NCBI GenBank assembly: GCA_973895155.1
Contig: OZ316892.1
Span: 20,833,619 to 20,897,618 of the forward strand
Source: Marsupella aquatica
Taxonomy: Eukaryota > Plantae > Marchantiophyta
Direction: 5' to 3'
Length of the DNA: 64,000 nucleotides
The translations under genes and the position numbers were made by a program. Within the stretch, counting starts at the first letter, position 1. Each line of letters begins with the position of its first letter. The notes under the pieces were generated by a model. It searched no databases and was not told the origin of the DNA. It saw only the letters and a list, made by a program, of their open reading frames with translations. This document shows positions 9,356 through 60,530 of the stretch, piece by piece.

Positions 9356-9945
9356 CTTTTGTGCAACGCACGGGTATTTTCCTGAACGATGTCTTGGCCG
9401 ACACGACATCTTTTCCCTCAACGATGTCTTTGCCGACACGAAATCTTTTTTCTCAACAACATCTTGGCCGACACGACATCTTTTTTCTCAATGACTTCTT
9501 GGCCAAGACGACATCTTTTTTCTCAACGACCTCTTGGTTGACACGATATCATTTTTTCTCAACGACCTCTTGGCTGACACGATATCATTTTTTCTCAACG
9601 ACCTCTTGGCTGACACAATATCTTTTTTTCTCAACGACTTCTTTTCTCTCAATGAATAACCTTTAGGGCGACTCTACATAATTTCTCTCCACGACCTCTT
9701 GGCCAACACATCTTTTTTTCTCAACGATATCTTGGCCAACATGACTTCTATTCAAAACAACCTCTTGGGCGACACGACATCTTTTCTCTCAACGACCTCT
9801 TGGGCGACACAACATTTTTTTCTCTCCAAGACTTCTTGGCCGACACAACATCTTTTCTCTCCACGACCTCTTGGCTGACATGACATCATTTTTTCTCAAG
9901 GACATCTTGGCCGACACGACTTCTTTTGTGCAACGCACAGGTATT
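9356..9945. repeat. Minisatellite of degenerate ~33-bp units bounded by a 23-bp direct repeat
   Basis: Consensus CTCAACGACCTCTTGGCCGACACGACATCTTTTTT, roughly 17 copies. CTTTTGTGCAACGCAC(G/A)GGTATT at 9356-9378 and 9923-9945. Confidence 0.9.
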
Positions 9946-10390: not shown

Positions 10391-13300
10391 TGTTGGGATC
10401 TACATAGGGTAGAGTTTGTTGGACATCAGTAGTCCTAACCCAATTCCCACTCTAGCAAGTGACCTTCTCTACTCGATCGAGCTTTATGGACGGGTCACTA
10501 TTAGCACACACCCTGTCCCAAGTGACTTCACCCCAACCACAGCCACATGGAAGTTCCCTTTCTATTTGACAACTTTTCAATTGTAACACAGTGACGGACC
10601 AAACGAGAAGTATGACCACCAAACGAGAAGTGTGTTTTCGATTTCGCGAAAAATGGCAAAAAATCACTAAAATTAAGATCAAAAACGCTATTTTGAGGAT
10701 GAATCCAAAATCGCATCCAACATCGGATTTCAAATTGAGATACTATCGACGCAAAAACAAAGAATTGTCACAATACAAAATTCTGATACACTTCATCTAA
10801 AAAAAGTGCAAATTCCAAAACCTAGAAAAACAATGCTTTTCACGTGATCCTTCTAAAAGCTAAATCCGAGCGTCAAACAAAACGAGTAAAACACAAGATT
10901 TCATTTTCGCCATCAAAATGGCAAACTCAAAATGGGATACGGCGCATCCCATTTCGGATTCAACCGTTGAACGTGGACGAAAACCACACCAAATCATTCT
11001 CTTGACGCTTCCATTTAACTTTGGGTTTAAAATATTTGAATTTTTAACTGCGGTAAAACCAAAAACTGCGAAAAACTGACCGCGGACTACAGTCGACCCA
11101 CACAATTAGTTAAGTTAACCTGACGACATGTCCGGTAAATTTTTAGCCCATAACGCATGATGAATATGAGATGGGATCCAAGTATCCACTATCGTATTCA
11201 ACCTCAATGTTTTCCACCTCCAACTTTGCATCAGGAGATCTTTCGACATGAATACCAACTGAGATCCATGGATCCCATTTTTTTGCAAGTCCAAAAACTC
11301 ATCGGGAAAACAGGAGGATGAATACCAGATGGGATCCATTTTGAACTTTTCGCATTGCATACCTTGATATTCTAGTTTGAAGACCAATTGGGATTTGCGA
11401 CGACTTCCTCAAAAATTTACAATTTAAATTTCAGCATTCCTTGAAAAGACAGACTCTCACTTTAAAAAACCCTTATATGGACCACTCAGGGAATGCCAAT
11501 AGGGATCCACGTATCCCATTTTTCTAAACAAGTCCAAAAATAACCCACTCAAAACCAAGGATGAATACCAAATGGGATCCATGGATCCTATTTGGTATTT
11601 GCCTGCCAAAATTTGCCTTTGCCGCACCTTGCACCTTGATATTGAGGTTTGAATACCAACACGGATCCATGGATCCCATTTGGTATTCACCCGCCAAAAT
11701 TTACCATTGCCACACCTCGCACCTCAATATTGAGGTTTGAATACCGACACGGATCCATGAGTCCCATTTGTTGATTCAACTCCAAAACAATTTTGGATTT
11801 TTCCTTGCTCAGCACAACCCCAATCACATCCATTTTTTACTCTTTCAAAATATGTAGGACCAATCAACAGACCTACCTAAAAATGGAGGCAAATACCAAG
11901 TGGGTTTGTGGATCCAACCTCAAATTCAAAGTCCCAGATTGGCCCTCGGTCACAAGTTACTCATCCATTTTCACATTTGAATACAAAATTGGATTTCATT
12001 TGGTCTTTACAAAATTATTATCACACTTTGTAAAGTTCTTGATTTATAAGATAACATGTTCTTATACCAAATGAGATAAAACAACATGTTCTTATACCAA
12101 ATGTGAGATCCATGGATCCCAGTTGATATTCATACAAGGTTTTATGACTTTTTCCTTTCTAGATTTGTGAAATAACATGTTTGAATACTACATGGGATAC
12201 TTGGTATCCCACTTGGTATTCATCTTGAACTTTTGATCATTTGTGATATTTTTACAAATGCAATCTGTTTTTTTAGCAAGATTTTGCTTGATCCCAGATT
12301 TTTCTTTTTCTATTTTTGCAGTGCTGAGTAAAGCGGCCGAAAAGTCTCAAGCTCTTCTTTCTAACGGTATCAATTATAAGGAATTTGGATAAATACCGAT
12401 AAAGATATGGCTTCCAAAGCGTGAGAGGGTACAAACTTAAATTTTTGTAATTTTATAAATTGCACCCCACAACTTAATCTGATCTTATCTTAGTCAATCT
12501 TGCATTTTGCACCTAAATGCTTCATATTCAGAGGTTGAATGCAAAGTGGGATACGGGGTATCCCACTTTGCATTCAACCTCATTTTTTCACGTTTATGAT
12601 ACCCAAACTGGATTTTTGAAGATTGAATCCCAAATGGGATACGCCGTATCTGGACCGCCATTAGACTCACAAGAGAAAATGTTGTTTTCCCAAGAAAGCT
12701 AAAGCTTGAGTCGGTGTCTGTCACTGAACGGCAGCAAGAGCTTCAGTGCGTGTTTAGTCAAACTGCGTCTGCGAAACAATCAGTAATCCATAAGACTTTT
12801 CCCATCATTCCAAGAAAACTCTAGGTAGATACCACATGGGATACCCCGTATCCCACTTCGCATCCAACCTCCTTTTTTAGCTAAAGAGAAACCAAAACTG
12901 GACATTTGAAGGTTGAATCCCAAACGGGATACTCCGTATCTCATTTTGCATTCAACGTTGAGGTTTTGACATTTGGAGTCTAAGATGCTTCATATTCGGA
13001 GGTTGGATGTGACATGGGATACCCTGTATCCCACTTTGCATCCAACCTCCTTTTTTAGCTAAAGAGAAATCAAAACTAGACATTTGAAGGGTGAATCCCA
13101 AATGGGATACGCCGTATCCCATTTCGCATTCAACGTTGAGGTTTTGACATTTGGAGTCTAAGATACTTCATATTCGGCGGTTGGATGCGATATGGGATAC
13201 CTTGTATCCCACTTCGCATCCAACCTTCTTTTTTAGCTAAAGTGAAACAAAAACTAGACATTTGAAGGTTGAATCCCAAATGGGATACGGCGTATCCCAT

Positions 13301-13899
13301 TTGGGATTCATCCTCGCCATTTCTATGAAGATTCTCACTTGTTAGTCAAATCTGATTTTCGGGGAATACAAGTTTGTATAGACGGTGTGCATTCGTCGAG
13401 AGTAAGAGGATACAGAGCGAGACAAAATGAGCGAAAAATTCTCAAGCGGTGATCTCCTATTTATAGTTTTCTCTCTGACCGTGGTTAGTATTTGACTGCA
13501 GTTGTATCGCAGTCGGTTAAATATTACCGTTGAGAAGAATTGTTTGGGAATATTCTTGACGGGTAAACCAATATCGGCACTTTTACTGCGTTTGTTTTAA
13601 TTTTTTTTGGAATTTCGCGGTTGGATCCGAAATGGGATACGTCGTATCCCATCTTCGTATTCGTGTCGATTTTTCCCATATTTTAAATTTGAAAAACTAG
13701 TTTTTAGGGGGAATACTAATTCCGTATCCAAGACTTTTTTGCCTTAGAATTTTTTTCACCGCGGGCAAAATGAGAAGTGTGGTCACACTTCTCGTTTGGT
13801 CCGTCACTGTGTTTTGTTCATAATGCCCTTATACCATAATTGATATTAATGTCAAGTGTCTTTCATTTTAGTGCAAAATGGACACCCTCCTATGTTGGC
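10391..13899 (-). mobile_element. Putative 3' LTR (~280 bp) split by the TIR element
   Basis: On the minus strand a polypurine tract AAGGGGGAG (~13903-13912) precedes TGCCAACA; the candidate end ...GATCCCAACA is at 10391. No partner LTR was found. Confidence 0.4.
10585..13813. mobile_element. Non-autonomous TIR DNA element (3.2 kb) rich in palindromic repeats
   Basis: TIRs AACACAGTGACGGACCAAACGAGAAGT...ACTTCTCGTTTGGTCCGTCACTGTGTT; TTGT on both flanks (10581-10584, 13814-13817). Many internal ATGGGATAC..GTATCCCAT and GGATCCATGGATCC palindromes; no transposase ORF. Confidence 0.85.
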
Positions 13900-17358: not shown

Positions 17359-17600
17359 GTGGAGAGGCTCAGTGGTAGCACAACTGTCACGGCTTCGTAT
17401 GGGAGGAGCCGCTGGTGGTGCAAGGGGCACTAGGGTGCTTGCTCAAGGTATTCCGTGGAGGCGTTTGAGCACCAGGGGCACTTAGGCGCGAGTGCTGAAA
17501 TTGGTGAGTGCGCTGGGTGGCAAGGTCCACCACTACAACTCAGTTAGGGATCAAGAAGTCCTGGGTTCAAAACCAGTTGTGTGCAAAGAATTCTTTTTAA
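17359..17600 (+). mobile_element. tRNA-derived SINE-like sequence interrupted by an LTR fragment
   Basis: A-box-like GGCTCAGTGGTAG lies before the insertion and B-box-like GGTTCAAAACC after it. Removing 17385-17539 joins them at tRNA-like spacing. Confidence 0.55.
17385..17534 (+). mobile_element. 150-bp solo-LTR-like insertion with 5-bp TSD
   Basis: ACAAC on both sides (17380-17384, 17535-17539). Homologous in inverted orientation to ~21307-21460, which abuts a PBS. Confidence 0.7.
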
Positions 17601-17904: not shown

Positions 17905-19539
17905 CACTAGTACATTTTACCTCCTTTTTCCGATTCTCTCCACATCGGACGCCTTTGTAAAATAAAATTTGAAAAACCATATATCCGATACTACTAGCAT
18001 CGCAACATGCCATTTTAATAGTATCGGATATCGACAATCGGACTTCTATCGGAAAGTCTGATGGTGGGAGAATGGGAAAGTCTGATGGTGGGAGAATGGG
18101 AAAGTCCGATGCTAGGAGAATGGAAAAGTCTGATGGTGAGAGAATGGGAAAGTCCAATGCTAGGAGAATGGGAAAGTCCGATGGTGAGAGAATGGGAAAG
18201 TCCGAAGCAATCAAAATGGGATATGCATTTCAGCGGACGCGACATGCTCAGGTCACCCATCTCTTCCTTTAATTGGGTTTCTACTTTCATTTGGAACTAT
18301 GAGCTAGGTGCCCATCTCCCTTGACATGTGAACTCTTCAAATTTTCTCAACTAATTGGTCACCCATCCCAATTGCTATTCCTCCAACATGAGCTTAACTT
18401 TGTGGTTCTTATTCCTTACATTGTACATGCAAGCTTAGCACTTTTGTTGTTTGACTTAGAGTGTTTGGGGATTTTATACACTTGTGAGTTTACTAAGACC
18501 CATAATTTGGACCCATTCTTGATCCATTTTTCTCTATCATGAGATTAGATCTTTGCATCTAGTGACCTATTCTAGTTACCCTATTACATTCCCCTAGGAG
18601 AAACCAATAGAAATCTGGCAGGGGTCATTCATCGATAGTAAAGCCCTCCTTCATTAGATTTGATATGGGATAATTATGGCTTATTAGTTATGGATGATAT
18701 TTTGGTCCTTCCAAAGCCTCAGCGCCAATGGCTCCTGATTGTCTCATCTTTTATCAACTATGTTGTTGTTGGACTTGCAACAAAGACTACATGGGACAAG
18801 CAACCTCCTTCTAGATGATGTATTTTGGACTTGGCATGTTGAGCACATATTTCCGTAAGGGAACAATATGTTGGGTCTTGGAATGAGGCAAAAACAACAC
18901 TCAAGTCTATTTGCCTCAAGTATGAAGTTATTCATGCATGGAAGAATGATTGCATCTTTTGGGAAGAGTCTGTCGGTGCAACCACATACCCCATCTAACA
19001 CATCAAAACTTTTCATTCTAACACAATCAAAAATTTTCTTTTTGTCATAACCAGATTTTCCCATACTCCCAGCATCAGACTTTCCCATTCTTCTAGCATC
19101 GGACTTTCCCATACTCCCAGCATCGGACTTTCCCATTCTTCCAGCATCGGACTTTCCCATACTCCCAGCATCGGACTTTCCCATTCTCCCAACATCGGAC
19201 TTTGCCATGTTAGCACAATCGGATATAATATCCGTTATTATTAACTACGGAAAGTTTCCGATCAATATTGTAACGCACATCATTTTCGTTACAAAAAACA
19301 TCGGACATATCAATCAAAGTTTATGTTGAGGGATCCGATGTGTTTTCTAACGGATATGATCCGTTTTTTAACGCATCGGAAAGGTTCCGTTGTCAATTAT
19401 ATCGGAAATGAAGATATCCGAAGCCGAGAGTATGGCATATTGCCATTTTTTGATAATCGGAATTTCCGATGCTAAAAGAATCGGACGCCGATTGTTCGCA
19501 AAAATTGAGCATCGGAAATCAGCTTAATATGTACTAGTG
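17905..19539 (+). mobile_element. Non-autonomous CACTA (En/Spm) element, copy 1
   Basis: Termini CACTAGTACAT...ATGTACTAGTG, 3-bp TSD TTA, 24-bp subterminal repeats in opposite orientation at the two ends. Internal TnpD-like fragment EAKTTLKSICLKYEVIHAWKNDCIF (~18880-18995, + strand). Confidence 0.93.
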
Positions 19540-19599
19540 TTATTTCTCTCGGATGGACAGGTGTCACCTCCACATTCCTTTTGATGTAAAAGTACTTAC

Positions 19600-21460
19600 T
19601 ATGTATTTTGATTCCTTGGAAAGATTCCTTACCTGAGAGCTGATTTTTGCCAAAATTTTTGAATTTGGATCCCTTGCCACCCACCTTTGCCAAGTCTGGT
19701 CGGTTATTCACTACCATAGTGTCCAAGGTTGTCAAAGGCATCAGAAAGCGTTTTAAACTCATGACGCTTTTCCTGTAACTTTTCTTTGAGTAGCGACAAG
19801 AGCTTCACTATACAGTTGTGAAGCTGCATATGTAGGGTCTCTTGCCCTATCGGGATACACGCCAACTGGTTCTGGTAATAAGTGATGAACTTTTGGATAT
19901 CGCCCGTGAAGCTCATTTCCGTTACATATTTATGCGCGTGCCACTCTGGGTACTTAGTGGCGACATGAGCACGGAGACCCTCAACCAGGTTTTCCTAAGT
20001 TAACGGCAAGGAGGAGTCCTCTTCCCTGGGCTCTCACTCCGTGTAAAAAAAGTGGACCCCACCTGCGATCAGGCTCTTTTTTTGTTTACCCCTTGTTATT
20101 TCCATTTTACTATTAAAAGTTCCCTTATTACCAATAATAATTATAATTATTAGTTCAAAATGAATAAAAATTACCCTTTGAGCGTTTGCACGTCCTCCAC
20201 GTATTAGTTAAGACTGAGGGCCCAGGGGTCCTCTTGCGACTTCTTGCAAGACTGGTACCAAGTCAAGGCATTGTCCTTCAGGTAAGGAGCAATTGCGGTA
20301 GCCCAAGTGGATCGCTTAAATACATAGGCTTGGAGATGAATCTCCATCGTGGAGAGCCAACTCAAGAACTTTTTTCCACTTTGCTTGTAGGCCCCGTCAT
20401 AAGTTGGAGGAGTTGGTAATTGGTTCACTTGGAACATACTTCATCCAAGTTCTACCATTCCCCCCTCCGGACGCAACGCACTCTGACTACCTAGACTTAG
20501 TAAGTACTTGATCTGGGCGCCCTTGTTGTGTTATGGTTGCTCATATATGAGACACTGGTCTTGAGTCAACGGTCCTAAACCGTTGTCAGCAGCTGGGACC
20601 TTGCGGGTTGTATGACCTGGACAGTCATCCAACCGCCTTTCCTTTATAGGCCGCCTATCCTTAGGTTCACGTGTGGAATTTGGTGACACCCCCGTAGCTT
20701 ATGGGCACCATGACCTCCCGGGGCTGTGGCACCACCCTCATCACCCTGGTTTTGCTTGGTCAAATTATCCACAATGATGTCCGGCTTGACATCATCCTCT
20801 AGTTCCGCATCCAACCCTCTTAAGGCTGGGATCAGCCCCTCTAGCTTTTGGGTCCTGACCCTCTCCCTCCAATTATGTCTTTGAATTGCTATTGCTCTCA
20901 TCTAACTCGGTGTTATCATTCATTTGCTCAACTTGTCTTTCAAAGGGTCAGCGGCCTCCTTCCCTTTAAGTTGACGACGCTTTGCACTCAATGTCTTTGT
21001 TGTGGTGGCTGACGGTCCAGCTGCCATGTCCTCGTCTTCCTACTTGTAGCTTACGTTTGTCTAGGGAAGTGGACCCGTCTTCTTTCTGTTTATCTGGAAT
21101 TGGGACCCTTCCCTTGGCGGAAAGAGCCTTCTTGCCAATCTTTGATCGAGTGTTCTTAACCATGTTTCTAGCAACTGAATCTGCCCGCAGTCAACCCATT
21201 GGGCACATTGAAGCACTAAGTCCCCACAAAATTCCATTAAATTTTTTGGATTCCGACTTAGCCCAACTCCGGCCCGGTCTATGCCAGCAATCGCTCTGAT
21301 ACCACAAGTGGTGGACCTTGCCACCCAACACCCTCACCAATCCCAACACCCACGCCTAAGTGCCCCAGCCTAATGCCCGAACATCTCCATGGAACTCCTC
21401 AAGCAAAAAACTTGATGCCCCTTGCACCGCCTGCGACCCCTCCTATACAAAGTCACGCTT
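19600..21460 (-). mobile_element. Degenerate Ty3/Gypsy-like 5' remnant (LTR end, PBS, gag)
   Basis: PBS TGGTATCAGAGC at 21304-21293. Gag-like PPTYDG..WLSTME..YLKDNALTWY in ORF 20204-20437. The rest is broken by stops. Confidence 0.75.
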
Positions 21461-21631
21461 GTTCCCTAACATGATAAGCGCTCAACAATCCTCCCTATCT
21501 GCACAAGTAACCAAGTACCTTGGTAAGTAACCCGACAAGATCTAGATCTCCCCAAGTCGAGCATCCTAACTTGAGCTCAACAAACCTTAGGTAAGTAGGT
21601 CAGTGATAGGTCCTCATCAGCCTATTCATTA

Positions 21632-21745
21632 AAAGTGTACTTTCTTTTGTTCACAAATCAGTCTTGAAATGTACACTTTCATGTCCCCAAATGTACACTT
21701 TAAGAAACCCAAATGTACACTTTTTGGTCTCTAAATGTACACTTT
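21632..21745. repeat. Cluster of AAATGTACACTTT motifs at ~22-bp spacing
   Basis: Four copies at about 21667, 21690, 21711 and 21733 plus an inverted variant at about 21632; resembles transposon subterminal repeats. Confidence 0.7.
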
Positions 21746-22020
21746 ATAGGCCAAATCATATAAGTATTATATTAATAAATAATACATATTATATCATTTA
21801 TTGATTCACAAAGAATAATAGTATAGAGATCATTATTTATGAATTCACAAAGAATAGTAGGATAGAGATCATACTTATAAAAACATTTCAGCACAAATAA
21901 ACCCTTGAATATGTGTGAACAAAATGACATAACTCCAAATAGATTATAAAATAATATACAATTATCTCCAAATTTACAATGTATTTCTTCTATTTAAGGG
22001 GCTTAACATGAGTCATATCT

Positions 22021-23061
22021 CTAAACAAAGTGCTCCTTACAATGTGTATTTGAGCACGTGCCCCTGTCTCCTTTACTATCTACCCTAGTGTCACGGTTGC
22101 AAGTCCCTTTATCTTCAGGGAGCTGAAACTTGGTGGTGTTGTTCCTAATGGCTATAATCTCTCGCAAAAAGTGTCTGGGATTTTCTCTATGCGGACCTGA
22201 ATAGTCCCTTCCTACAAATGCTTTAGCAAGTGACGTGACAAGTGTATCGTCAAGTTCTGCCTCAAGACGTAAACTACATATACGATGCTTCACGTTCCAA
22301 GGAATCTCATTGCTATTGAGGTCCAACACACTATGCGTAAACTGTGACTTCCAAATTTTTGTTGCACATCTCTTACTAAGTTGATCATAAGTAATTTCAT
22401 TTTTTACCTTGTCTCTCTTTATGTGCAATAGAGACCACAGTGGAGAGTTAAGAAGAAGATAACATCTAATGTCACTTGCATGGGATAGTTTCTCAAGACA
22501 AGGCCAAAGAATTGTTAGAAGAAAATTATCTCCACCATTGGCATGCGTGTAGGGCACTGGAAATAGTCCGGTCATGCTTGGGTTGGCAAATGCCTTAAGG
22601 GGGGAGTCATCCACGAGGAGGGTGTTGGTTTCATCATATAGATTTCCAAATCCACTCCATACCACCCGAAAATCCTTCAATACTTAGCACATTTTCCTTT
22701 CCGTTTGTAATGTCACGCCTTTGAATGCCTGTGTCAAAGGCTTCCACTTGTGTGAATACAAACTTAAGTTTCAACCTCTCCTCAACAGTGAACATCATGT
22801 TCAGCATTTTCACTGTTCGATGTACCCCAGCACATGTCCAAATTGCAACGTCAAATTGGTCAAAAACCAACTTTAGAAACTCATGGAGCCCTGGCCTTTC
22901 TGTGTACATGCGACTAATTCCATTTTTTCTATCCCAATGCACTCCACTTGGGATCACAACATTTCTGGATTTGCCCTTGCTTTGGAATTCAACTGAATCC
23001 CAAAGTATTTTGTTAAGATCCAAAATCAGCAATTTGCGCTTGATGGAACAAGGTCTTGGTT
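22021..23061 (-). pseudogene. FCP1/SCP (NIF, HAD-superfamily) phosphatase-like gene with a frameshift
   Basis: KLLILDLNKIL, ERPGLHEFL..FDVAIWT, then after a frameshift at ~22680 KDFRVVW..YDETNTLLVDDSP.K..NP. A TTGCAG acceptor lies at ~23062. Confidence 0.85.
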
Positions 23062-23313
23062 CTGCAAGTGCAACAAATACCAATCTTAGAGATAAAACCA
23101 CATTTGAAGTTTGGATAGAGATCATCTCTGTCAATCCAACACAAGTGGCCAACCACAAAGAAAATATATCTGCATACTGATCAAATTCATTGAGAAACCG
23201 TAAAGAGGAGATGGATATTGATACTGATGCTCTAATTGTTAAACTTGAAGTATAATTATACAAACTATATTATATCAAATTGATAAGGTCACATCGCTCA
23301 ATCTAGACCTTGG

Positions 23314-24873
23314 CTAACAATGCGATCCATATTCATCAATCAAGATATCATCACCGAGTTCTTGTTGGATCTCATAATTGACATCGGAGGTACTCTCCTC
23401 TACCCAATAAGGTGCAGACCAAACCGGAGTTATCAATCCCAATTCTCCACTTCTATAAGTTGGATCTTTCTTGTGCTTTTTGTACGAGTCATTGTTCAAA
23501 ATCGATTGAGCAGCATCCAACGCAACTTCAGTTCCTACATTGGGTCCACTTTTCCACACGTAACATTGACAATCATATTCAAGTGACTTATATCCAGTTG
23601 ATCCTACTCTCTTCCCTTTCTTTTTTGAGAGTGGAAGGATAACAGGACTTCTTGACTGTGATCGAACAAACACCAATTTGTCATTAGAAGCGGAAAAGAG
23701 TGTATTGGGACAAATTGAAGCACCTGCCTGGTTGTCAGCAGTCGTGGATGCACTTGCTTCATTCACGGGAATGTCAGCTATTTGGATGGGCTGTGGTCTC
23801 AATCCCAATGTGTCGAGTTCATTGGACTCACCATGCCTCTCCGCACCTTGATTGAGAAGGTTGTTTGAAGAAAGTTTTTCAAAAGTATCAACTTCCATCT
23901 CTTGTCCAGGCACTTGTGGATGGAGACCATCTCTATCCAAGTTATCATCATATTGGCCCTCGTTGGGGCCCATGGGGGCAGCATCTGTAATTGGTGAACT
24001 ACAAGGTGCAGATCCAACAATCATATCGTCGTCCACAAGGTCAATATTTTCACCCTCGCCAACTCGGTCATCCAAATTCTTCACGTATGCCTCTGATGGC
24101 CCATCGTCTTTGACTGATTGGTCAGCTCCATCTTCTTGATCACCATCTGATTCATTTTCAATAGCAACAGCGGCAGAAGAGGGTTCCCAATGTCTAGAAC
24201 TTCCACCGACATAGCGATCATAATGATCTTTGATGGTGGGAACCTTCTCACAAAGGAACGAAGCGTATGCTTCCACAAAATGTCTCTCATGTTGAGAGTC
24301 ACAATAAACAAAACATTCACGTTGAGAAAAAAGGGATGCCTTCATCACTTGACCGCCAGAGAAAAAGTCAAGAATCAAATCCCCCAGCTCGGATAGTGTT
24401 TGGATGATCTTTTGGATCATCCGTGTGGGTTTGGTGTGAGGATTCACCCACCCACCCCGAGCGCCGACAGTCTCAAATCGAGGTGCCATGTGCAAAAGGA
24501 TTGCCGCCTCTTTTGGGGTCATCATATTTTTTAGATCTTCATGCAATGACTCCTCGTCCGCGTCCTTGGCCTTTCCCTTTCCCTTGACCTTCTCAACCAC
24601 GAAATCAGTATCCTTTTCACCGTACACCCATTTTGGCTTCATTTGGTTGGGCTTGAACACTTCATCCCAGCTGACATTCTCCTCGCGAGAAATTCCGGCA
24701 AAGATAACCTCTTCTATTCCTCCCTTCCAACATGAGTCTTGAGGGTGAGGTTGATCATCTCGGTAATAACTCCCATACTCAATGTGAATACTTAGAGTTT
24801 TTGAATGTCCTAATTTATGAAGAGCGCTTAGGACATTCAGTACAAGATAACCCGGATGGACAGTTATCATCAC
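23314..24873 (-). CDS. N4/N6 (beta-class) DNA methyltransferase-like ORF with acidic tail; N-terminus missing
   Basis: NPHTKPTRMIQKIIQTLSELGDLILDFFSGG..KAS..R matches the HPxxKP..LI..S..GD.VLDPFxGSG (motif X/I) signature; IEEVIFA resembles motif VIII. No DPPY/SPPY in the ORF, which is cut upstream by unrelated retroelement-like DNA. Confidence 0.72.
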   Translation of the reverse strand: MMITVHPGYLVLNVLSALHKLGHSKTLSIHIEYGSYYRDDQPHPQDSCWKGGIEEVIFAGISREENVSWDEVFKPNQMKPKWVYGEKDTDFVVEKVKGKGKAKDADEESLHEDLKNMMTPKEAAILLHMAPRFETVGARGGWVNPHTKPTRMIQKIIQTLSELGDLILDFFSGGQVMKASLFSQRECFVYCDSQHERHFVEAYASFLCEKVPTIKDHYDRYVGGSSRHWEPSSAAVAIENESDGDQEDGADQSVKDDGPSEAYVKNLDDRVGEGENIDLVDDDMIVGSAPCSSPITDAAPMGPNEGQYDDNLDRDGLHPQVPGQEMEVDTFEKLSSNNLLNQGAERHGESNELDTLGLRPQPIQIADIPVNEASASTTADNQAGASICPNTLFSASNDKLVFVRSQSRSPVILPLSKKKGKRVGSTGYKSLEYDCQCYVWKSGPNVGTEVALDAAQSILNNDSYKKHKKDPTYRSGELGLITPVWSAPYWVEESTSDVNYEIQQELGDDILIDEYGSHC

Positions 24874-25073
24874 AACAATGGTAGGATTCCGTGGTAGCTC
24901 TACTAAAGTTAGGCCGTAGTGATGACCTTCGAGCAGTGAGTATTGTTAAGGCTCGTGGGCATCTGCAGGTAGATGAAGCTACTCACGCTATAATAAATCA
25001 TTCGGACATAGATGAATTTAAGCCCAATGTTAGTAAGACTAAGATCGGTACCTCACCCAATTTTGGTGATTGT

Positions 25074-25083
25074 CTTGATACCA
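25074..25083 (-). mobile_element. PBS-like site of an LTR element adjoining the methyltransferase ORF
   Basis: Minus strand reads TGGTATCAAG, a few bases after CCACCA. Confidence 0.45.
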
Positions 25084-25207
25084 CCAAAGATGGTGGAGTG
25101 TGATGCCTAGCCAGGAATCACTAGGCCAGTTAAGTGGGGAAACGGAGGTGTACCCTATAAACCCATTAGTATAGTAACAAAAACAAGGAAAATATAAACA
25201 ATTAAGG

Positions 25208-28200
25208 GTGACTATGGAACCTGGGCTGTGGCCGGAGGTAAGGACGCCGGGGGAGAGAACACGATTAGGGTTAGGTTGTGCTAAGCATCGGCGGCTAGGG
25301 GTAACCAACGGGAGGAAAGACCAGAGGAGGAGAGGGGTAAGGACCGCTCGCGAGGAATGGTGGCTCATTTGCAAGCACGAATTGAGCAGACGACTGCGGA
25401 AGGCCAACTACTGTCGGCTACTTAGGCAGGCACTCTGGGCGGGAGCAAATACCAATGATCGAGTCAAGGAGGGTATGAGCAACGTCAATCAAGCGACACA
25501 TTTTTGGGGATGCCTGTTTGAACGGGCAACTAAGTACATTAGGACTTACAAGGATGAAGAATCGAAGAGAGCAGCTCGAGAACAGCAGGAGCTCGCTCGA
25601 CTGTGGGAGCTGCAAAAGTCTGCCTTCTTAGGAGGAGAACTCATCAAGGCCGAGTTCTTGTGGACTCCTACTGCCAATCAGCTCGATGACCTTATGTTTT
25701 GCGAAGAAAGAATCGTCAGCATTCGGGAAGCCATCAACCGCTGCAACGACACACACTAGGAGTTGAAGGGTAGCACGGAGGGGTGGACAAAGGCAACTGT
25801 GCTAGGAGAAACATCCACAGCAGCCGAGATGAAGAGGAAAGGAAACAACAACGAAGAGGCCACCCCGACAAAAAGAACGAGGTCGGCGGCACCAAGGAAG
25901 CCAACAGAGCAGCAGAACGGGAGGTAGGGAGAAGCCAAAGAGGAGGAGGTCTATCCCATCAATGTCATGAATCCAACAAAGGATGACATCTGGAAAGGCT
26001 AGGCGGCGACCCTACCAGAGGAAGTGCAATTATATTTTGCACGAGAGGAGGATGCATACTTTACGGTCATGCAAACCAAGAAGTACCAGGGCTTCATGGC
26101 CGGATCCGGCTTGGAAGCCTTTGTAAGATTACCATGGCTAAAGCCGGAGGTGCCGGACTCAGACTTATTAGAATTTGTGGGATCATGGGAACCCGAGACC
26201 AATTCCACTAGGGTGTATGGGAAGGATTTCTATCTCACTCCCTGGATGATTGCCGAGGTGTTTGGCTTGCCGATGGGTAATAAGACCAAGGTTGATACCA
26301 GGAAGACCTTACCTGACAAGGGGTTCCTGTCGTTCCCAGGACCATCAACGAAGAATGGCTTCTTCCGGAACACCTGCACCAACCCGCACATCGAAGAGAT
26401 GATCGATTTCTTGCGGGTGACCATGCATTATAACTTGCCAAGGGCAGAGATCGGCAAGGCTCAGGTCTACCTGGAACAAAGGCCAGACCCAAGCCGGGAT
26501 TACAACGGGTACCTCCTCAACCAACTGAAGAAGATCTTGAAGGAGGAATAGCAGGTGATTGGCATGGGAAGCATGTCCCGGCTTGGCTATCACATGCCGC
26601 TGTTGTGCCGGTATGCCAGAAGTCAAATCTTTGCCCCAGTACTTCCCCTATCGGCAAGGGCACCGGAGGAGGTTCTGGAGTAGAGGCCGGCAGCAAAAGA
26701 GCCCAACCAGCCTGCCAGTCCTACAATCGAGCAGATGTTTCGGCCAAGGAAAGAAGACTTGCCGATACAACAATCAGGCATGCATAATCTGCTAAAATTG
26801 CTGGAGAAGGAGAGAACGGCACCGGCAACGGCAACGGCACTAGTACAGGACACTGCCCCAGAGGCCGGCTTAAGCCGACTCAGGAGGGAAAACCCCTTTA
26901 TCGGAGCCAAGGAGAGAAGGAGGTCGGAACACAAGTCGGGAGTTTGAATGTATGTGGGAGCTTCAAGCCCCGAATCGGAGGCAGAGTAGCCTAAGGCTCC
27001 TTTCCGCGGAAAGCAAAGGGAGAGGACAGCCTTAAAACCAGAGGAGGAACAAGAGCCCATGATCTGTGAGGCCATTTTCATAGTAGGACTAGGGGAACAG
27101 AGGGGAAAGCCGGGAGTCCAAGCAGTGGAGGAGGCGGTGGAGGACTACAGCAATGATAACTTCAGCTATGGGTCGGATCATCATGTTCCAGGAGTAAGGA
27201 CCTGTGGCCGATTTATCCCCACGCTTCCAAGAGTAGTTCGAGGGGACCCTACCCAGCAGAATAGCCCCGAGTCTCCCCACTAGAGGTTGCTCCCCCAAGC
27301 TTTGACGGCATAAAGCAGACGGCACAAGAATTTCAGGAGCGACTTAGGGAGGAAGAGAAAGCAACCCTGGCTAGGGAGAAAGATTTACCAGGAGGAGATT
27401 GGCCGAAGGACATCAGGCGGCTTGCCGAAAAAAGAAGCAACCCTCTTGCCACCGTAGAAGAAATCCGCAAGGCGGCTTGGGAACAGAGGCCAAGGTGGTT
27501 GATGCTGATGACTTCTACTTACTCCACCTATGCTAAAGATAGAGCCATGGAGTACGGGGAGATGTGTGGGGACCTGGCGCTCAACATCTTTGGGGAGGAG
27601 TTGGAGCAGGGACCTTTTTTTCAGAGGGAGATGTTGGAGAAGCACCGATTAGAAGAAGCGGTGGCTTTGGAGAGAAGCAAGAAGGACGAGGTCATCCGAT
27701 GGCTTAGGGAGATGGAAGCCGAGGTGGAAGACCTGCAGGCGGCCAAGAAAGCCCAAGATGAGCTGCGGATTAAGCGGCATGAGCTAAACATTATGCAAGG
27801 ACAATTGGATGCCGCTTAGTCTGGCAATCAAATTATCAAAGATAAACTGACTCGGACCCAAGGAGAGTTGGCCGGCGCGGTCAAGGACAGGGAAAAGTGG
27901 AAGTAGGAGCTGAGGGACGCAGAGGAGGCCCACATAGCCGCCAACAACCGGGCCATGGCAAAGACTCAGAGAAAGGAGAGGGCATTGAAAGGAGAGCTCG
28001 AGGATATCCGCGGAGCCCTTGAGCAGAAGGAAGCCGAGTTAGAGAAATCATATCAAGGGATTATTGCGCTGCAGCAGGAGCTTGCGTCCCTGACGGCCAG
28101 CTTCAAGGTCGACCTGCATGAGAAGGACAACCAGCTTGACCAGACTTATGCCAAAATGAATAAAATGGAGTCTGAGGTCGTAGCGGAGCTCGACAAGGAG

Positions 28201-28920
28201 CTAAGAGCAACCCAGGAGGAGAGGGCTACCTTAAAATTGGAATTGGAAGAAGCCAGAAAGGAGCTGCAGGAGGGACGGAAGGACCTGGAGGAAGCCCAAG
28301 AGGAGTTGGAGGAAACCAACAGGAAGATGGAGAACTTACAACGGCGGGCCGACAACCAAACGGAGCGGCTGAAGAAATAGGCCGCAGTGTTTAAGTGCTT
28401 AGCTTCATCTGGTCCAACTCCAATTGTGGGAACTCCGTTACCAGGAGGGGTACTGGCCGAAAGACAAGCCGAGACACACGCCCCGGTGCCGGAGGTAGGT
28501 AGCAAGGGGAAGGGACCAGCTACCGAAACAGGGAAGAAAAAGAAGCGGAAACCTTCTGGGTCTGTGAGTTATACGACTTACCAAGCCATTGTGACCCAGG
28601 AGGTCAACCCGGCACCAACCTCCGGCATGATCATGGTAGTAGATCCACTTGTTGAAGAAGGTGGGGATGGCAAGGCCGAGGCTGGGATAGCTATTGATGA
28701 AGCCGAGGTACCGGATCCTCCACTAGAACATGCCGGGGAGGCCGAAGCCGTATCAAAGGCCGTGACCGATGCTGGGGCCGAAGCCGAGGGTGGACCCAGT
28801 CAAGCCGATGAAGAGTTGACTCGGTCCGGGGCAGGTAATCTGTCAGAGGTTGGACCGACGGCAGTGGCTGCGGGGGAAATGTTGGGGGCGTCCATTGAGG
28901 GTCTGCCACCGGTGTTGTGA
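25208..28920 (+). pseudogene. Decayed long accessory ORF (plant-mobile-domain-like N-part plus coiled coil), probably retrotransposon-derived
   Basis: ORFs 25208, 26024 and 26735 share one frame; 27499, 27955 and 28387 share another; isolated stops separate them. EFVGSWEPETNSTRVYG..LTPWMIAEVFGLP resembles PMD/plant-transposon domains. E/K-rich heptads at 27500-28380. Antisense to the nearby PBS. Confidence 0.65.
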
Positions 28921-31054
28921 CGGTGCAAGGGCGCCGTTCCTTTCAAGAAGGGCGGACGTGGAGGTAGGAGGCATGAGTGGGCAGCGTGGGCTCAGATCTC
29001 CAAGTTTAGGATTTGGATCAAGACCAGGAGACGGCCTTGACACTTAGATTAGTGGGATGGCGGATCCACTGGTAGGAGCAACACTTGTGCTCCTACCTCG
29101 CTGTACAGTTAGGTAGATTACAGGTAGGATAGATTAAGCTTACACAACGAAGTTCTGGATAGATCCGCTGCCAGGATAAATACCTGGGCAGCGGGGAGTC
29201 CAGGGCCTCTTCTTTAACAAGTTTTTAGTTGCACCAGCAGGGCTGGGATCAAGTAATAAGAGAAGCTCTCGGTTAGTTATACAGTGACCCTTGTGTATAT
29301 TCATGTTTCCTCATGCCTAAGAACTGAATAGAGTTGGCCTCATGGCTTAGTTCGCAGAGCTTGTGTATGAGATGTACTGTTTGTATGGCAAGTGCATGGT
29401 ATAACTCAGTCAAAAGGAGTCATTTTGCTATTTGTGTGTCGCATTAACTTGTGTGAAGAGAGCCCACATCAATGAAGGGAAATAGCAAGGGAGTGAGAGT
29501 TGGATGTGTCGAGCTGAGAGAGGTCTTAGCGGCTTAACCAAGCCAATTGGGGATCATTTCGGCGGCGGAATCCAAACATACCTAATTAATGGAAGACCAG
29601 GAGAGGGATACAAGGGAAGGACTAGAATAGGTCGGCTAAGTATCTCATGACCAGATGAAGGATCTATCCAGTATATATGTGTAAAATGTTAATAGTAGTT
29701 GAAGGAGAGTTAGCAGCGTCCCATGCCGCTAAGCCACGGAAACGGCCTCGCCAAGGACAAAACCTGCAGGAATTGGCTTGAGCAAGGGGGTTTTCTTGGG
29801 TTTGGGGAGCCATGGGACGCACCGCATGGAGCAACAACATTTCAGAGACTTCAGCGTGCTATTTTGGACTTTTCTGGAGACCTCATCATGTCTTTGAAGT
29901 CTTTTTGTATTTCGGAGGAGTAATTAGAGTGCTATAGTATGTAGCAGACTGTTGTATTCCAGTGATGGTATGAAATCCACACTGAACTGGATGTTGTTTC
30001 AAGCTCAAACTTTATACAGTAAAGTACTTGATCAATACAGTGTTGTTGTCTCAACACAAGCTTCTGTATATGTGTTGAGTCCTCAATTCTTGTCTATGGA
30101 TGCGCCTCTGATCAATATGTTACTTCAGTTGTACCTTTCTGACACTTAAGTCTCTGGGCATGAAGACCACAACTGTTCAAGAGAAGCTTGGAAGTTCCTT
30201 CAATAGGTGGTCTAGATGATATATTTTAGTTGAGGAATATCTTGATTGACATGTGAGTAAACCTGTGTTCTTTGCACTAAATCCTCGAGGAGACAAATGG
30301 GCACCAGAGGTTTTGTAACTTGGAAGGCAGCTATACAGTGGGAAGAAGTTGGCTGGAAGTGACAAGTGTGGATTGGTATATACTTGCAAAAATCTTGAAT
30401 GTACAAAAATAGCGCCCTGCAATTAGGTGTGTAATCCAAGGGATTATTGTGAGTTGATACTTTTGTAGAGTACACCTGACAACAGAAAGTTTGAGACCAC
30501 ATATGGATGTCCCGTATTATTGTCATTCAAGTGTGACATAAATAGAGACTTAATAACTGTTTCTATCTGAACAATTGCTTTGTGCATGATTCAGATATGC
30601 TTACAGAAAGGTACAACCACACGCAAGGAAATCAAGGCACATCATGTCCACAAGGCCCTTGAAGAAATGAGAAGGAAAAATTCCTTAAGTGATGAAATGC
30701 AGATCCATTAACATGAAATATTACAAACATGATTATCTTGTGAGCCGAGTGCCAAAAGTGGCACTCGGTCTACCATCTAGAGTATGTCACTCAGTCTCTA
30801 CCATCTAGAGTATGTCATCTAGAGTGTCCCTTAGTCTAGACATGATGTAGTCCTGCCCGAAGTATCTTGAAGGTTTAGTCTGTGTTCAAAACGCAAAACA
30901 CCAGTACAAATTGTATAAGTACCTGATTGCAAATTTACAAAGGCCCAACTACCTAAAAAAATAGAACGCATTCATACAAGCAGCTCAAAGAATTCTCATA
31001 TAAGCATTGTCGCTAGTTATCTGGCCACATATATCTCCCAGACCCTTAATACAC

Positions 31055-31455
31055 AAGGACACAGTCTAGTTTATACATTGGGAGAGTCCTTTGTGAAGTC
31101 CATGTAAAAGGATATAGGACATGGTCCTTTCTGCGGTTAAGGACTGTGTCATTAACTAAGGAACTAGTCCTTTACCATGACTTGCACCAAGGACATAGTC
31201 CTTGAATATGTCCTTAGTCAAGGATCTAGTCTTTGAATGTGTCCTTCACGAAGGACATAGTCCTTCACAAATCCTTTTTAGTCCTTTTGAAAGGACATGG
31301 TCCTTTCCATGGTCCTTTCCAATATGACTCTGTCCTTGTCCAAGGACACAGTCCTAGTCCTTGTAAAATGACCGAGTCCTAGACATGCCATCAAACCAAA
31401 AGGAGTCGCTATGTAGAGGAGTCCTTACTAACAGCAAGGACACCTTGGACATGTC
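31055..31455. repeat. Array of short AGGAC-n-GTCCT palindromes
   Basis: AAGGACATAGTCCTT, AGGACATGGTCCT, AAGGACACAGTCCT and variants, more than ten copies. Related motifs occur at 34710-34875 on the other side of the transposase. Confidence 0.8.
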
Positions 31456-31619
31456 TTTACATAAGAACATAATCCTTACACATGGACGCACTAAGGATGG
31501 GTTACGGGCAAAGCTCAATGACATTGTATTGCACTGCATGGTTAAGGTAGTGCATGGAAGTGTTGATGTAGATTGCAAGGAAAGTAGGAAGTTGGGCAAT
31601 TCAGAAATTTACCTCAATA

Positions 31620-34334
31620 GACGATTCTCTCATGACCGCAAAGAATCTGTAATTGCTGCAAGTGTGTCTTTGTCCAATTTGAACTTTCTGCTACCACCCT
31701 TCCGTCCTTGGGTATCACATGGGCTTAGCCCAAATCGAATGTGAATTACTGACTTTGCAAGACTAAAAGCTCATATGAAACTAAATAATGAGAACAACAC
31801 AGTGAATTCAAATATTGGAGGTAGAGTTCCACACTTACAGCTACACCCTTTCCATGTCCTGAAGCATGGAAAAACCATTTCATCCGTGCACCAAATCTCT
31901 TGTAATACCTTGAGACGTAGTAGAAAGGTCTAAAAGCCTTAAATTGTGAGGCAGCTCCATCGGACCAAACGCAATGCTGAGTGAATTCAATTCCCTCTTG
32001 CTTCATCCAATGGTAATGAGCATCCATGCAATGCTGCACAAACAAGGTGTCATGAGTATTATCATCACTGATATAGAAATGATAGTCGGCGATGATATCT
32101 CTGTCACCAGCTTCACTCTGTGCCATACTCACTGTCCGTCCCACTGCAGCCTCCATAGATTGGTGCACATCTTCTTGATGTCTATAGGTCACATGGATCA
32201 ACAAAGTAATCTGTTTGTTGTCCCAATGTTGCGATTGAATCTCATTTTGCATCTTGAAAGTGTAATTTTCAGAGAAGTCAATTGAAGACACTATGGTTCC
32301 TCTTGGGAACGTCTTCAAACACAATCTAAACTGGTCACTTTGCCAGCAAGCTCTAAAATCATGAACAACAAATGACTTCATTCTGGCTTCGACCACGTTC
32401 CTGAAATCACTTACAGACGTAGTCTTATACACCATCCTCAAGCGTTTAGACTTTTTTTGTGAACTCTCATCACTTCCCTGCTTCTGTGCTTTCTTCATTT
32501 GTAAGTTGTCATCTAACTCCTGATATTCAAAACTCTGCCAACTAATAGTTAGTTGTTGTGTGGAATCCAACTCCCATGGACACCAGTCCAGATTCAGCGT
32601 TCCACAATCTACAGAAACTCCCATAATACAGTCCTTCTTGTGCCATACCTGCCCCTCGGTTTTCTTACACAGCGCACCTTCCATCCAACCTCGAACAGAG
32701 GTAATGTGTGTCCTTGAAGCTACACAAGAAACACCTAATGGAATGGCCACTGATTTACAAGTACAACACTGACAACTACACTGAGAGGGGTGATGAAACT
32801 TCCTGAATTTGTTTAGTGCCTCTTTCAGGAGGTCCATTTCAACTTGCTGCTTGCAGCAGCATACATTTCGATCCTTCATGGTTCGAATGTAAAACGGTTT
32901 CAGATAATTGAAGGACCGCAGGCCTATAGAAACAGCATTGTTCTCAGCCTTGCACCAATGTTGGAACTTGAAGAAAAATTCAACCTGTAAGTAGACATCA
33001 ACAGGGTGTTAATAGATTACCCAAATTCAGGCTCTCAAATTTGTATCGTTGGCTACAACTGAAGACGGGACTAAAGAATGCAGAAAATTTTAAGAACTCT
33101 CAAAGAAATTGAAGTAGCCAATGTGAGGATATCCTTCCTTTGTATCCTCAAGCCAATGTACTTTATGTTCCTCATGTTGATTTGGTCCAAGTCGCTTTCT
33201 AGCTATCTCTTTCTTGCCTGGTGAGATTCTAGTGTATGTGCTCCAAAATAGTTCAACAATCTTGCGCACCTTTGCACTAATCTTGTCACTCCTGGTTTTC
33301 CTTTCCCCCATTGGGTATTTTATACATTGGTTCTCATCTATCTGCTTCCGCATGTTTGATGCTTTTTGAATGTTGTGTCTCTTGATACCAAAAGCCTTAG
33401 CTAAAGAGGACTGATATCGCTTGCCAACCGTGGACTGTCCGACCATAGCTACCAACACTGAATGCTTTACAGCCAAGTGATCTTTCTTTTTACCCCACTT
33501 CACAATTTGCAAGGTCTGCCTAAGGTCAGTTATAGCAGCTCCTACAGATGCATCTAACTTAGGGGTCCCAAGAGCTGCAGGATGATATTCTCTCAATGAA
33601 GAATGCAACCAAAATCGCTCTAGGACTACCTTCCTTGCGGATAAGTTGAAATCTCTCATTTTTTTGAATAAGACTGAAGTTACCTCGGAGACCACTGAAT
33701 CAACCACTCGTCTCGTTCTATTGGGCGTTTCCTCAGCAAGATGACTAGACAAACTTAAACTTCTCATCCTCCAAAGTCTCCAATATGCAGCTCGTTTTCT
33801 AGCAGCATCTTTCTCCCTGAATTCTCTGGCCAAATGAGGGTCCTCTTGCATGCTTTGTAGACAGTGAGCTCCTTGACCTAATCGCACACGCAGTACTTCG
33901 AGGGCGGCTTGCTTTTGCCCTATCCTAGAGCGCAAGCGTGACAATGTTTCTTTGCCTTCAGCACAATCATTCTCGATGTTGTGCAGCTTCAACACAGCTT
34001 GAGCGGTTGCCTCTCCATGTAAGCGAAGCGCCTCATTCCTAGCAGCAGTTAATAATACCTCACTTTGCTGTTGAGCATGAAGAAGCAATTGATCAGCTTG
34101 CTGCTGAGCATGAAGAAGCAACTGATCAGCTTGTTGCTTGGCATCAAAATCAGGCCCGTACTATTGCCATCTTCCGGTTGAATGCCTCTATTCAATTGCT
34201 CAGTGTTGACCTCTTGGCACTGCCCGATAGGCTTGTCATACCATGACTTTTGCCTTTGAAAATTGTGCCGTTCTTTTTTTTTTCTCTTCTTGGGATTTAT
34301 CTTGGCGCCCCGCTTGGCGCCGCACTGGTGGCAT
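31620..34334 (-). pseudogene. Sola-like (Sola2-type) DDD transposase, spliced, internally deleted
   Basis: F..LKPFYIR..CCC, DFSENY..QNEIQSQHW..QIT, FYISDD..HD, WSDGAASQFK, FFHASGHGKG. The expected following DGxG segment is absent; 5' part (33090-34334) has frameshift/stop. Confidence 0.8.
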
Positions 34335-34914
34335 CTTGCTAAAATTGATGGCAGCTCCTACAACACGATGAGCTTTTGAACATGAGTTCAAAAAAATATT
34401 TCATAAGTTAAAGAGGCCATGATCCAAGTTAAATGAGGCTCTAGATGGCAAAAATTCATGTGGGAACACCCGCACTCAGGCAAACAAAAAATGGAGTCTA
34501 ACAACATTGAGATGTCGTGCGGCTTACCCTTTACCAACGAGGTGAACACCCTACATTGCACAAGACGGTCGCCAAGCTTTTTGCTAGTTCTATGGATGAT
34601 CTTTAGAATTTGTCGAATCCGCTTGAGGCCAGAAGCTCTCTGGTAAAACTCCTGAAGCAAACTCGCAAAACATTACCGCAGACAGTCGACAGCCCTTCAA
34701 TTCCCTGGCTTCAAGGACATGGGTCCCTGCCTCTTCCGTAGAGTCCTAGCTGAGCCTAGCTAGGACTCCTTAGTCTACGCATAATTAAGTATTTTGAAAT
34801 TCAAATCGCTACTTAAGTCCTGTTTCATTGGTATTCATTACCACTTGGACTTCCTTTTAAGTCCTTTTGTCCTTAACCATTGAATCATTAATGGACGCTA
34901 CTCCTAATCAAACC

Positions 34915-40900: not shown

Positions 40901-41299
40901 TTACTTGTCTACTCTTTATGCATGCAGGTTTTGTTCAACCTCTACGGAGTCAATATGGACCCGACCGTGTGGGAAGACCCGATGAAGTGGAACCCTGAAC
41001 GTCTTCTGGACACCAAGAAAATGGACTGGTACCGAGACATACGCATGATGCCTTTTGGCGGCGGTAAGCGCCAGTGTGGAGGAATCACTCAAGTCATGAA
41101 AGTCATTCCGATGGCCATTGCTTCATTCATTCTCCACTTCGATTGGAGCGAGCCTGCACTCTCTGCCAAGGAGAAGTCGGCCGAGGAAGATACTGTGTTC
41201 TTGACAACCCACAAACTCTATCCTACAAAAGCCATAGGCAAGCCAAGAGTGAGTTCACGAATCAAGTTTCCGGAAGCTGTAGAACTGGCATGGAAGTAG
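37996..41299 (+). CDS. CYP701: Cytochrome P450, CYP701 family (ent-kaurene oxidase-like), six exons, 551 aa
   Basis: GT-AG exons 37996-38200, 38430-38896, 39161-39412, 39825-39989, 40132-40326 and 40928-41299 total 1656 nt and stay in frame. CYP701-type motifs: GNFLQM.E.KP, VAMSDY, VDYRNFFP, WEPIIE..D..LVTTEWAM, ETLR, PER, FGGGKRQCGG, LTTHKLYP. Confidence 0.93.
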
Positions 41300-60256: not shown

Positions 60257-60530
60257 TTTGGCTCATGTGACTTCATTGTGACTCAACGTGACTTGACCCA
60301 CGCTGTGACCCTTGGAGTTGCAAAAGTTGAGACCAAAAAATGGAAGTCACTATTGATACTGGGCTTTGCAACTTGCTTGATACCCATTTGTGACTGATCT
60401 GTGACTTTATTGTGGAGTCTAGCCTTGTTTCGACGTGACTGCAATATGACTTCAGCGAGTCACATCGTAAGTCACATACATGACTTACCCGCATTCAACA
60501 ACGACTAGCGTGTGACTATTTAGTGTCACA
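60247..60530. repeat. Dense GTGACT/AGTCAC short-motif array
   Basis: More than a dozen GTGAC(T) or GTCAC motifs in both orientations within 280 bp. Confidence 0.75.

What the first reader, a model, noticed from the sequence alone, without database searches (positions are those of the whole stretch)
22021..24873. Prokaryote-type N4/N6 DNA methyltransferase coupled to an FCP1-like phosphatase inside plant mobile DNA
Seen: a 519-codon minus-strand ORF with beta-class amino-MTase motif X/I (PHTKP..II..S..GDLILDFFSGG), followed within ~250 bp by a co-oriented FCP1/NIF-like phosphatase, then subterminal-like repeats at 21632-21745. Known: beta-class 4mC/6mA MTases are mainly bacterial and phage enzymes, with few eukaryotic examples (bdelloid N4CMT, Marchantia sperm DN4MT1). 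Inference: this is cargo of a DNA transposon that marks DNA with a non-5mC base and could tune Pol II CTD-like phosphorylation. A phase-compatible splice (CTC G|GT near 23355 to AG|AA at 23061) could make a single MTase-phosphatase fusion.
Basis: partly seen in the sequence, partly recalled or inferred. Interest (0 to 1): 0.85.

Follow-up and report, generated by a model that had tools for sequence, protein, structure and literature searches.

The report
Transposon pseudo-methylase plus phosphatase-like cargo
This is a broken piece of a repeated plant mobile element, likely a liverwort DNA transposon, whose methylase-shaped gene belongs to a family that has lost the methyl-transfer motif and sits next to a phosphatase-like gene, so it likely helps the element bind and regulate itself rather than write 4mC or 6mA; a similar cargo is already described in algae.

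Summary
The sequence is real; the proposed chemistry is not supported. The 519-codon ORF, the NIF-like gene 252 nt downstream and the repeat array are all present. But this copy is a relic: the methylase-like gene is cut off at 24902 (its catalytic-motif region and N-terminus are missing) and the NIF gene has a 4-bp frameshift that other copies lack. Full-length relatives (Calypogeia, Riccia) have a ParB/DUF3723-like N-terminus and a true beta-class amino-methyltransferase fold (Z 16.9), yet 0 of 36 keep the [DNSH]PP[YFW] catalytic motif: a pseudo-methyltransferase clade (99/99). The NIF domain lacks the second catalytic Asp and is nearest UBLCP1/HAD-IIID, not FCP1. Linkage is conserved: other copies keep both genes adjacent, and five Riccia gene models join them. 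No TIR, TSD or own transposase could be tied to it. ParB-methylase cargo of giant transposons is published (Ectocarpus Sola1-1; red-algal Plavaka). New here: catalytic loss plus the phosphatase-like partner. New variant of a known kind; interest 0.4.

The parts
23314..24902 (-). 5'-truncated gene of the pseudo-methyltransferase family: C-terminal two thirds of a beta-class amino-MTase fold (motifs after IV, X, I, II), acidic linker, small conserved C-terminal domain; open to its stop at 23314-23316
   Evidence: 33-43% identity to Calypogeia fissa and unnamed relatives from 24882 on; HMM match starts at 24906; nested in the degenerate clade
24902..24905 (.). Break point: the element's sequence stops and an unrelated, lower-copy repeat begins (likely a deletion joining two elements)
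   Evidence: depth falls from 689 to 124 (X2) and 50,315 to 2,441 (X3); three X3 contigs continue differently behind 24902; an X2 contig of the other unit leaves the window at 24905
23062..23313 (-). Spacer, likely intron-like: ends in a pyrimidine-rich AG acceptor at 23062; length differs in other copies; the only in-frame ATG (23125) is not conserved
   Evidence: 186 letters replaced by 128 in X5/X4 copies; 23124 differs in X5 (337.5 of 337.5) and part of X1-X3
22021..23061 (-). NIF/FCP1-like HAD gene (motif I D-L-N) with a C-terminal extension; 4-bp frameshift at 22681 in this copy
   Evidence: Pfam NIF in two frames; TIGR02245 HAD-IIID best; 4 letters absent in X3, X4, X6 copies; 50% identity over 74 aa to the Riccia NIF part
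21631..21746 (.). Array of an imperfect 14-bp palindrome (TGTACA core), four copies at 22-bp period plus one variant; likely subterminal or self-recognition sites
   Evidence: TRF score 97; 10 of 14 self-complementary; kept, with variable spacing, in other copies
21616..21630 (.). Probable left end of the element, abutting an LTR (21308 to about 21619); not resolved
   Evidence: two X6 contigs with unlike flanks before 21616; X4 contig from 21625; weak

Best explanation
This is the broken 3' arm of a repeated element, likely a liverwort DNA transposon, carrying an accessory module that likely works as a self-binding regulator and not as a DNA methylase. Shown: the intact family protein is ParB/DUF3723-like domain + helical domain + beta-class amino-methyltransferase fold + acidic linker + small C-terminal domain; the catalytic PP(Y/F/W) is gone throughout the clade while the first Asp and the motif X/I pocket are kept; a NIF-like HAD gene with a non-canonical motif follows; a palindrome array follows that. 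Inferred: the ParB-like/helical part docks on the element's own palindromes; the dead methylase fold serves as a DNA-, base- or cofactor-binding and dimerisation scaffold; the NIF-like protein, probably made from the same transcript by splicing, acts as a slow phosphatase or phosphoprotein-binding adaptor at the element; together they would counter silencing or aid transpososome assembly, as VANC does for VANDAL. This copy can make neither protein intact.
For: Fold: top 11 matches all beta-class, Z 16.9, rmsd 3.5, 224 aligned to CcrM; Z 12.7 on a second model. Motif IV: 0 of 36 rows [DNSH]PP[YFW], none with Pro at either position, 34 keep Asp; column matches DPPY of a canonical enzyme. One clade of 29 rows, 99/99, apart from Ginkgo DIPH and canonical rows. 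Motif I one residue short and motif II acid replaced in that clade; both features bind cofactor in N4CMT. N-terminus of a Riccia member: DUF3723 0.95, ParB_N 0.90, TM 0.56; it aligns to a member of the window's side of the tree, E 3e-22. Repetition: near-identical contigs at depth 346-359 against 12-18 for lone contigs in X2; 2,287-2,976 against 38-40 in X4. Linkage: contigs span both genes in X2, X5, X6; 5 of 46 scanned relatives join both domains, all Riccia sorocarpa, on 4 contigs. Precedent: PMC12477816, 10.1101/2025.02.11.637652.
Against: No TIR pair, TSD or transposase could be tied to this arm; the neighbouring transposase-like ORFs carry another palindrome and a lower depth. The ParB-like domain was shown only on a relative, by a language-model search and predicted models; my own fold of that part had pLDDT under 50 and Pfam, PHROGs and NCBIfam did not name it. 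Binding to the palindrome is untested. The excess of silent differences between copies is only suggestive (9 of 18 and 11 of 23; p 0.008 and 0.005 against all changes, 0.11 each against transitions only). A one-residue-short motif I also occurs in one outgroup row (P0140). Summed contig depth is no copy number.
Confidence: 0.62

Rival explanations
1. Intact members are active but atypical methyltransferases (DNA 4mC/6mA, RNA or protein) using D-F-x-R in place of DPPY, and mark their own element.
For: Whole fold kept; Asp of motif IV kept in 34 of 36; D-F-F-S-G-G and N-P-x-x-K-P strongly kept; Iyer et al. note unusual strand-4 variants in two permuted clades.
Against: Both prolines and the stacking aromatic, which the mechanism needs, are lost; motif I is shortened and the ribose-binding acid replaced.
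Confidence: 0.17
2. The two genes are one spliced fusion (methylase-like + phosphatase-like), at least as an isoform.
For: Strong acceptor at 23062 just before NIF homology, no conserved own ATG, short variable spacer; the four best-scoring donors in the upstream ORF (23831, 24320, 23846, 23723) are all in the matching phase; five Riccia models are fused.
Confidence: 0.3
3. The pair is passively carried debris (Pack-type capture or Helitron/LTR cargo) with no role for the element.
For: This copy is truncated, frameshifted and nested among other mobile DNA; no transposase link shown.
Against: Long open frames kept across copies 10-20% apart and across Calypogeia and Riccia; the same gene order in a distant subclade; the frameshift is private to few copies.
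Confidence: 0.1

Closest known systems
ParB-like + N4C/N6A methyltransferase accessory gene of Ectocarpus Sola1-1_Ec32 (PMC12477816; passages and supplement rows seen)
   Same: ParB-like domain joined to an amino-methyltransferase domain in a protein of about 1,000-1,100 aa, carried by mobile DNA; proposed to bind its own element.
   Different: Here the catalytic motif is lost across the clade, a NIF-like gene follows, and the host is a land plant; homology to the Ectocarpus protein and Sola membership were not tested.
Plavaka accessory genes PAG2 and PAG3 of red algae (10.1101/2025.02.11.637652; section and passages seen; supplements closed)
   Same: PF01555 and ParB-like cargo on giant DNA transposons, next to tandem inverted repeats.
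   Different: There PF01555 is joined to SET and ParB to a 2OG-oxygenase, in two genes; no phosphatase-like gene is named in the section read.
MpDN4MT1 (10.1101/2021.02.12.428880, passages) and bdelloid N4CMT (PMC8885841 passages; PMC10406627 section 12)
   Same: Beta-class fold in a eukaryote (N4CMT structure matched at Z 14.5).
   Different: Those are host genes with (T)SPPY and shown 4mC activity; DN4MT1 has no extra domains. This family is multi-copy, multi-domain and lacks the motif.
Inactive methyltransferase domains: METTL14/Kar4 and DIRS1-borne MTase (PMC4738411, passages)
   Same: Fold kept, active-site motif disrupted; the DIRS1 case is also transposon cargo.
   Different: Different methyltransferase lineage; retroelement or host gene rather than ParB-linked DNA-element cargo.
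FCP1/SCP/UBLCP1 NIF-domain phosphatases (PF03031, TIGR02245)
   Same: NIF domain with W-T, K and D-D motifs.
   Different: Motif I is D-L-N (Riccia D-V-E) instead of D-x-D-x-T/V (recalled); no BRCT or ubiquitin-like domain found.

Membership tests
Beta-class DNA amino-methyltransferases (PF01555) | Permuted fold, catalytic strand before the SAM-binding motif | tested here: met
   Relatives' models: Z 16.9 (rmsd 3.5, 224 aligned) and Z 12.7 (rmsd 5.0, 196 aligned), top 11 rows beta-class. The window's own ORF was not folded as the first sequence.
Beta-class DNA amino-methyltransferases (PF01555) | Catalytic motif IV [DNSH]PP[YFW] | tested here: not met
   Region absent from the window; 0 of 36 relatives that cover it.
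Beta-class DNA amino-methyltransferases (PF01555) | SAM pocket: F-x-G-x-G motif I and acidic motif II residue | tested here: inconclusive
   D-F-F-S-G-G kept but one residue short in all 29 clade rows; acid replaced at the aligned column, an acid one place later in some. Binding not tested.
Beta-class DNA amino-methyltransferases (PF01555) | Pfam gathering score | tested here: not met
   24.3 bits against 26.7; 0 of 6 close relatives reach it.
Eukaryotic 4mC writers (DN4MT1, N4CMT) | SPPY motif | tested here: not met
   for the feature; for its absence.
Eukaryotic 4mC writers (DN4MT1, N4CMT) | Phylogenetic placement with DN4MT1/N4CMT | not tested
FCP1/SCP CTD phosphatases | NIF domain | tested here: met
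   Both halves pass the Pfam cut-off (30.4 and 24.2 bits against 21.8).
FCP1/SCP CTD phosphatases | D-x-D-x-T/V motif I (recalled) | tested here: not met
   D-L-N in the window; D-V-E or D-T-E in 6 of 6 relatives with the motif; HAD-IIID scores above FCP1_euk.
ParB-methyltransferase accessory proteins of giant DNA transposons | ParB-like N-terminal domain on the same protein | tested here: inconclusive
   Supported on a Riccia relative and by alignment to P0143; missing from this truncated copy; own model too poor there.
ParB-methyltransferase accessory proteins of giant DNA transposons | Lies in a repeated element with its own palindrome array | tested here: met
Sola (or other TIR) DNA transposons | TIRs, TSD and a linked DDE transposase | tested here: inconclusive
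   Only one arm is in the window; no inverted partner for the array; no genome held.

The most novel reading that the evidence does not exclude
Liverwort DNA transposons turned a phage-type ParB-methyltransferase into a catalytically dead partner or reader, fused by splicing to a phosphatase-like domain, that docks on element-specific parS-like palindromes and dimerises with, borrows or blocks the active ParB-methylases of sister transposon families: a METTL14-like pseudo-enzyme in an arms race between mobile elements.
Probability: 0.15. Interest if true: 0.8.

Novelty: new variant of a known kind. Interest (0 to 1): 0.4.

Why it matters
It corrects a tempting reading: PF01555 hits in bryophyte repeats need not mean 4mC or 6mA. 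A clade that keeps the fold and the cofactor-pocket motifs but has dropped the catalytic motif, across two liverwort classes, points to a non-catalytic job for these proteins. With young high-copy subfamilies at hand, it makes the published idea of self-binding transposon accessory proteins testable in a land plant, and adds a phosphatase-like partner that my ten literature searches did not find described.

Tried and rejected
No genome is held for the window, so no genome-wide copy or boundary search. No RNA holder listed; the laid runs are contigs, so expression and splicing are untested. Homologue search with the NIF half: 0 of 17 candidates passed. Profile scans found no relative in viral contigs (0 of 36 stretches) or prokaryote genomes (0 of 92); 1 of 117 in metagenomes, a 1.8-kb contig with the 5' part and an intron but no flank. 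The missing 5' part is nowhere in the window. No Rfam match in 21300-31500. No PDB sequence match for the neighbouring transposase-like ORF; its Sola-like label is recalled. The helical and C-terminal domains got no clear fold match, but were barely tested. A motif-I tally failed (0 rows, script fault); I rely. Two rows (P0081, P0132) dropped out of the tree for want of the anchor motif; long branches meet in it. Rejected: the transposase-like ORFs at 31749-34160 as this element's own (other palindrome, lower depth); DAM-retrotransposons as closest known (other enzyme class, absent LTR form in streptophytes); contamination (introns in relatives, nesting among plant elements, presence in three organisms). 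Walker et al. 2025 (Cell), Iyer et al. 2011 and the UBLCP1 paper were not seen.

Full report
Observation. The minus-strand frame 24945-23314 is open for 543 aa, 519 from the ATG at 24873; 30 base shuffles of the window gave at most 186 aa. Pfam N6_N4_Mtase matches only residues 169-210 (profile 163-205 of 221; E 3.6e-5; 24.3 bits, under the cut-off), and NIF matches in two frames. The repeat array is four exact 13-mers at 22-bp period plus a variant, an imperfect palindrome.

This copy is a relic. Relatives are 680-1,009 aa, but similarity to the window begins only at 24882-24906, and none of the stored proteins finds the missing 5' part elsewhere in the window. Laid contigs explain why: depth drops after about 24900, three X3 contigs continue behind 24902 with other letters (by hand, these read in frame like the relatives' helix upstream of this point), and a contig of the neighbouring lower-copy unit leaves the window at 24905. 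So two elements are joined here, likely by a deletion. The NIF gene is frameshifted at 22681; copies in X3, X4 and X6 lack those four letters. Further right, 25099-29826 is a separate TG...CA insertion with a 5-bp duplication and an empty site in X2 and X3.

The family. A profile search gave 133 representatives at E up to 0.001. Named members are Calypogeia fissa, Riccia sorocarpa and, more distantly, Ginkgo biloba; most have no name. The host is therefore likely a liverwort (inference). Two models of relatives match beta-class amino-methyltransferases in all of the top 11 rows (Z 12.7 and 16.9), and the profile finds M.RsrI at E 1.6e-11. The N-terminus of a Riccia member resembles DUF3723 (0.95) and ParB_N (0.90; TM 0.56) and aligns to P0143 at E 3e-22; DUF3723 is conserved Starship cargo (passages). 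Phage ParB-methylases were the nearest non-plant clusters, at lead level only (0.79).

Catalysis. The mechanism needs [DNSH]PP[YFW]. The aligned column reads D-F-S/G/T/A-R or D-L-T-H in the family: 0 of 36 rows have the motif, none has either proline, 34 keep the Asp. In a tree of 33 domains, 29 degenerate rows including the window form one clade (99/99), apart from Ginkgo (D-I-P-H, full motif I) and canonical enzymes; the clade also has a one-residue-short motif I and lacks the acid at the motif II column. Motifs X and I stay highly conserved, so the pocket is still under some constraint. I read this as a pseudo-methyltransferase; an atypical activity remains possible (0.17).

The phosphatase-like gene. 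It passes NIF, scores best with HAD-IIID and weakly hits UBLCP1. Motif I is D-L-N here and D-V-E or D-T-E in relatives, against D-x-D-x-T/V in CTD phosphatases (recalled). Nothing points to the Pol II CTD.

Linkage and fusion. Contigs of other copies span both genes, with a spacer of other length in organism B. Five of 46 scanned relatives carry both domains in one model; all are R. sorocarpa, on four contigs, in another subclade. Still, the acceptor at 23062 is strong, the NIF frame has no conserved ATG, and the four best donors in the upstream ORF are in the matching phase, so a spliced isoform is open (0.3).

The element. Near-identical contigs have 20- to 75-fold the depth of lone contigs, which suggests tens of young copies; depth is no exact copy number. 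Silent differences are enriched but not decisively (9 of 18, 11 of 23; 41 sites taken from the 80 rows that the two tables showed of some 2,300). No TIR partner, TSD or own transposase is in the window; the transposase-like ORFs at 31749-34160 have their own palindrome and lower depth.

Known systems. A ParB-like plus N4C/N6A methyltransferase gene is described in Ectocarpus Sola1-1_Ec32 and proposed as a class of self-binding accessory proteins (PMC12477816, passages and supplement rows); red-algal Plavaka elements carry PF01555 and ParB-like genes beside inverted-repeat arrays (10.1101/2025.02.11.637652, section 8; its supplements are closed and may list further cargo). DN4MT1 and N4CMT are active host enzymes with SPPY. 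Ten searches showed no paper on a liverwort pseudo-methylase with a NIF partner; subscription journals are mostly outside the library. Earlier notes of this scan, seen only after my reading was formed, report fuller Sola-like elements with the same three parts in this genome; they are unchecked AI notes and not counted as support.

Verdict. Real, broken, multi-copy cargo; works like a transposon's self-binding accessory module (inferred, 0.62); not a member of the active amino-methyltransferases or of the CTD phosphatases by their defining motifs. New variant of a known kind; interest 0.4.

Noticed in passing
window 25099-29826: 4.7-kb TG...CA insertion with a 5-bp target duplication, empty site seen in X2 and X3, very high depth, no internal long direct repeat, decayed plus-strand ORFs with a coiled coil; likely a very long solo LTR or non-autonomous retroelement.
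   Followed up: partly
window 31050-34900: Transposase-like ORFs (31749-34160, minus; Sola-like by recalled motifs, no Pfam or PDB hit) with five copies of their own 13-bp palindrome at 31116-31355 and related motifs near 34740-34880; part of a lower-copy unit that reaches 24905.
   Followed up: partly
window 17905-19539 and 48240-49873: Two inverted copies, 91-99% alike, of a 1.6-kb non-autonomous element with 24-bp repeats and a CACTA-type end at 19539.
   Followed up: no
window 54382-63223: SNF2, RING and helicase-C fragments upstream of a Transposase_24 match, all minus strand: possible CACTA element with a chromatin-remodeller cargo.
   Followed up: no
window 38000-41300: Intron-containing cytochrome P450 gene; resembles ent-kaurene oxidases (recalled, not tested).
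   Followed up: no
window 2257-4631: Three tandem 790-bp units at 99-100% identity: very recent duplication or assembly artefact.
   Followed up: no
window 10917-13674 and 9376-9927: Arrays of a GGGATAC-type palindrome at 88-90-bp period and of a 35-bp unit; likely further element-specific motif arrays.
   Followed up: no
window 19540-21619: Decayed minus-strand LTR retroelement piece with primer-binding site and LTR from 21308 (110 contigs with unlike flanks there); a 76% alike inverted LTR piece at 17393-17533.
   Followed up: partly
P0128 (Ginkgo biloba Gb_37443): Relative outside the degenerate clade with D-I-P-H at motif IV and a full motif I, plus a weak DUF6551 (ParB-like) hit: seed plants may hold less degenerate members.
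   Followed up: partly
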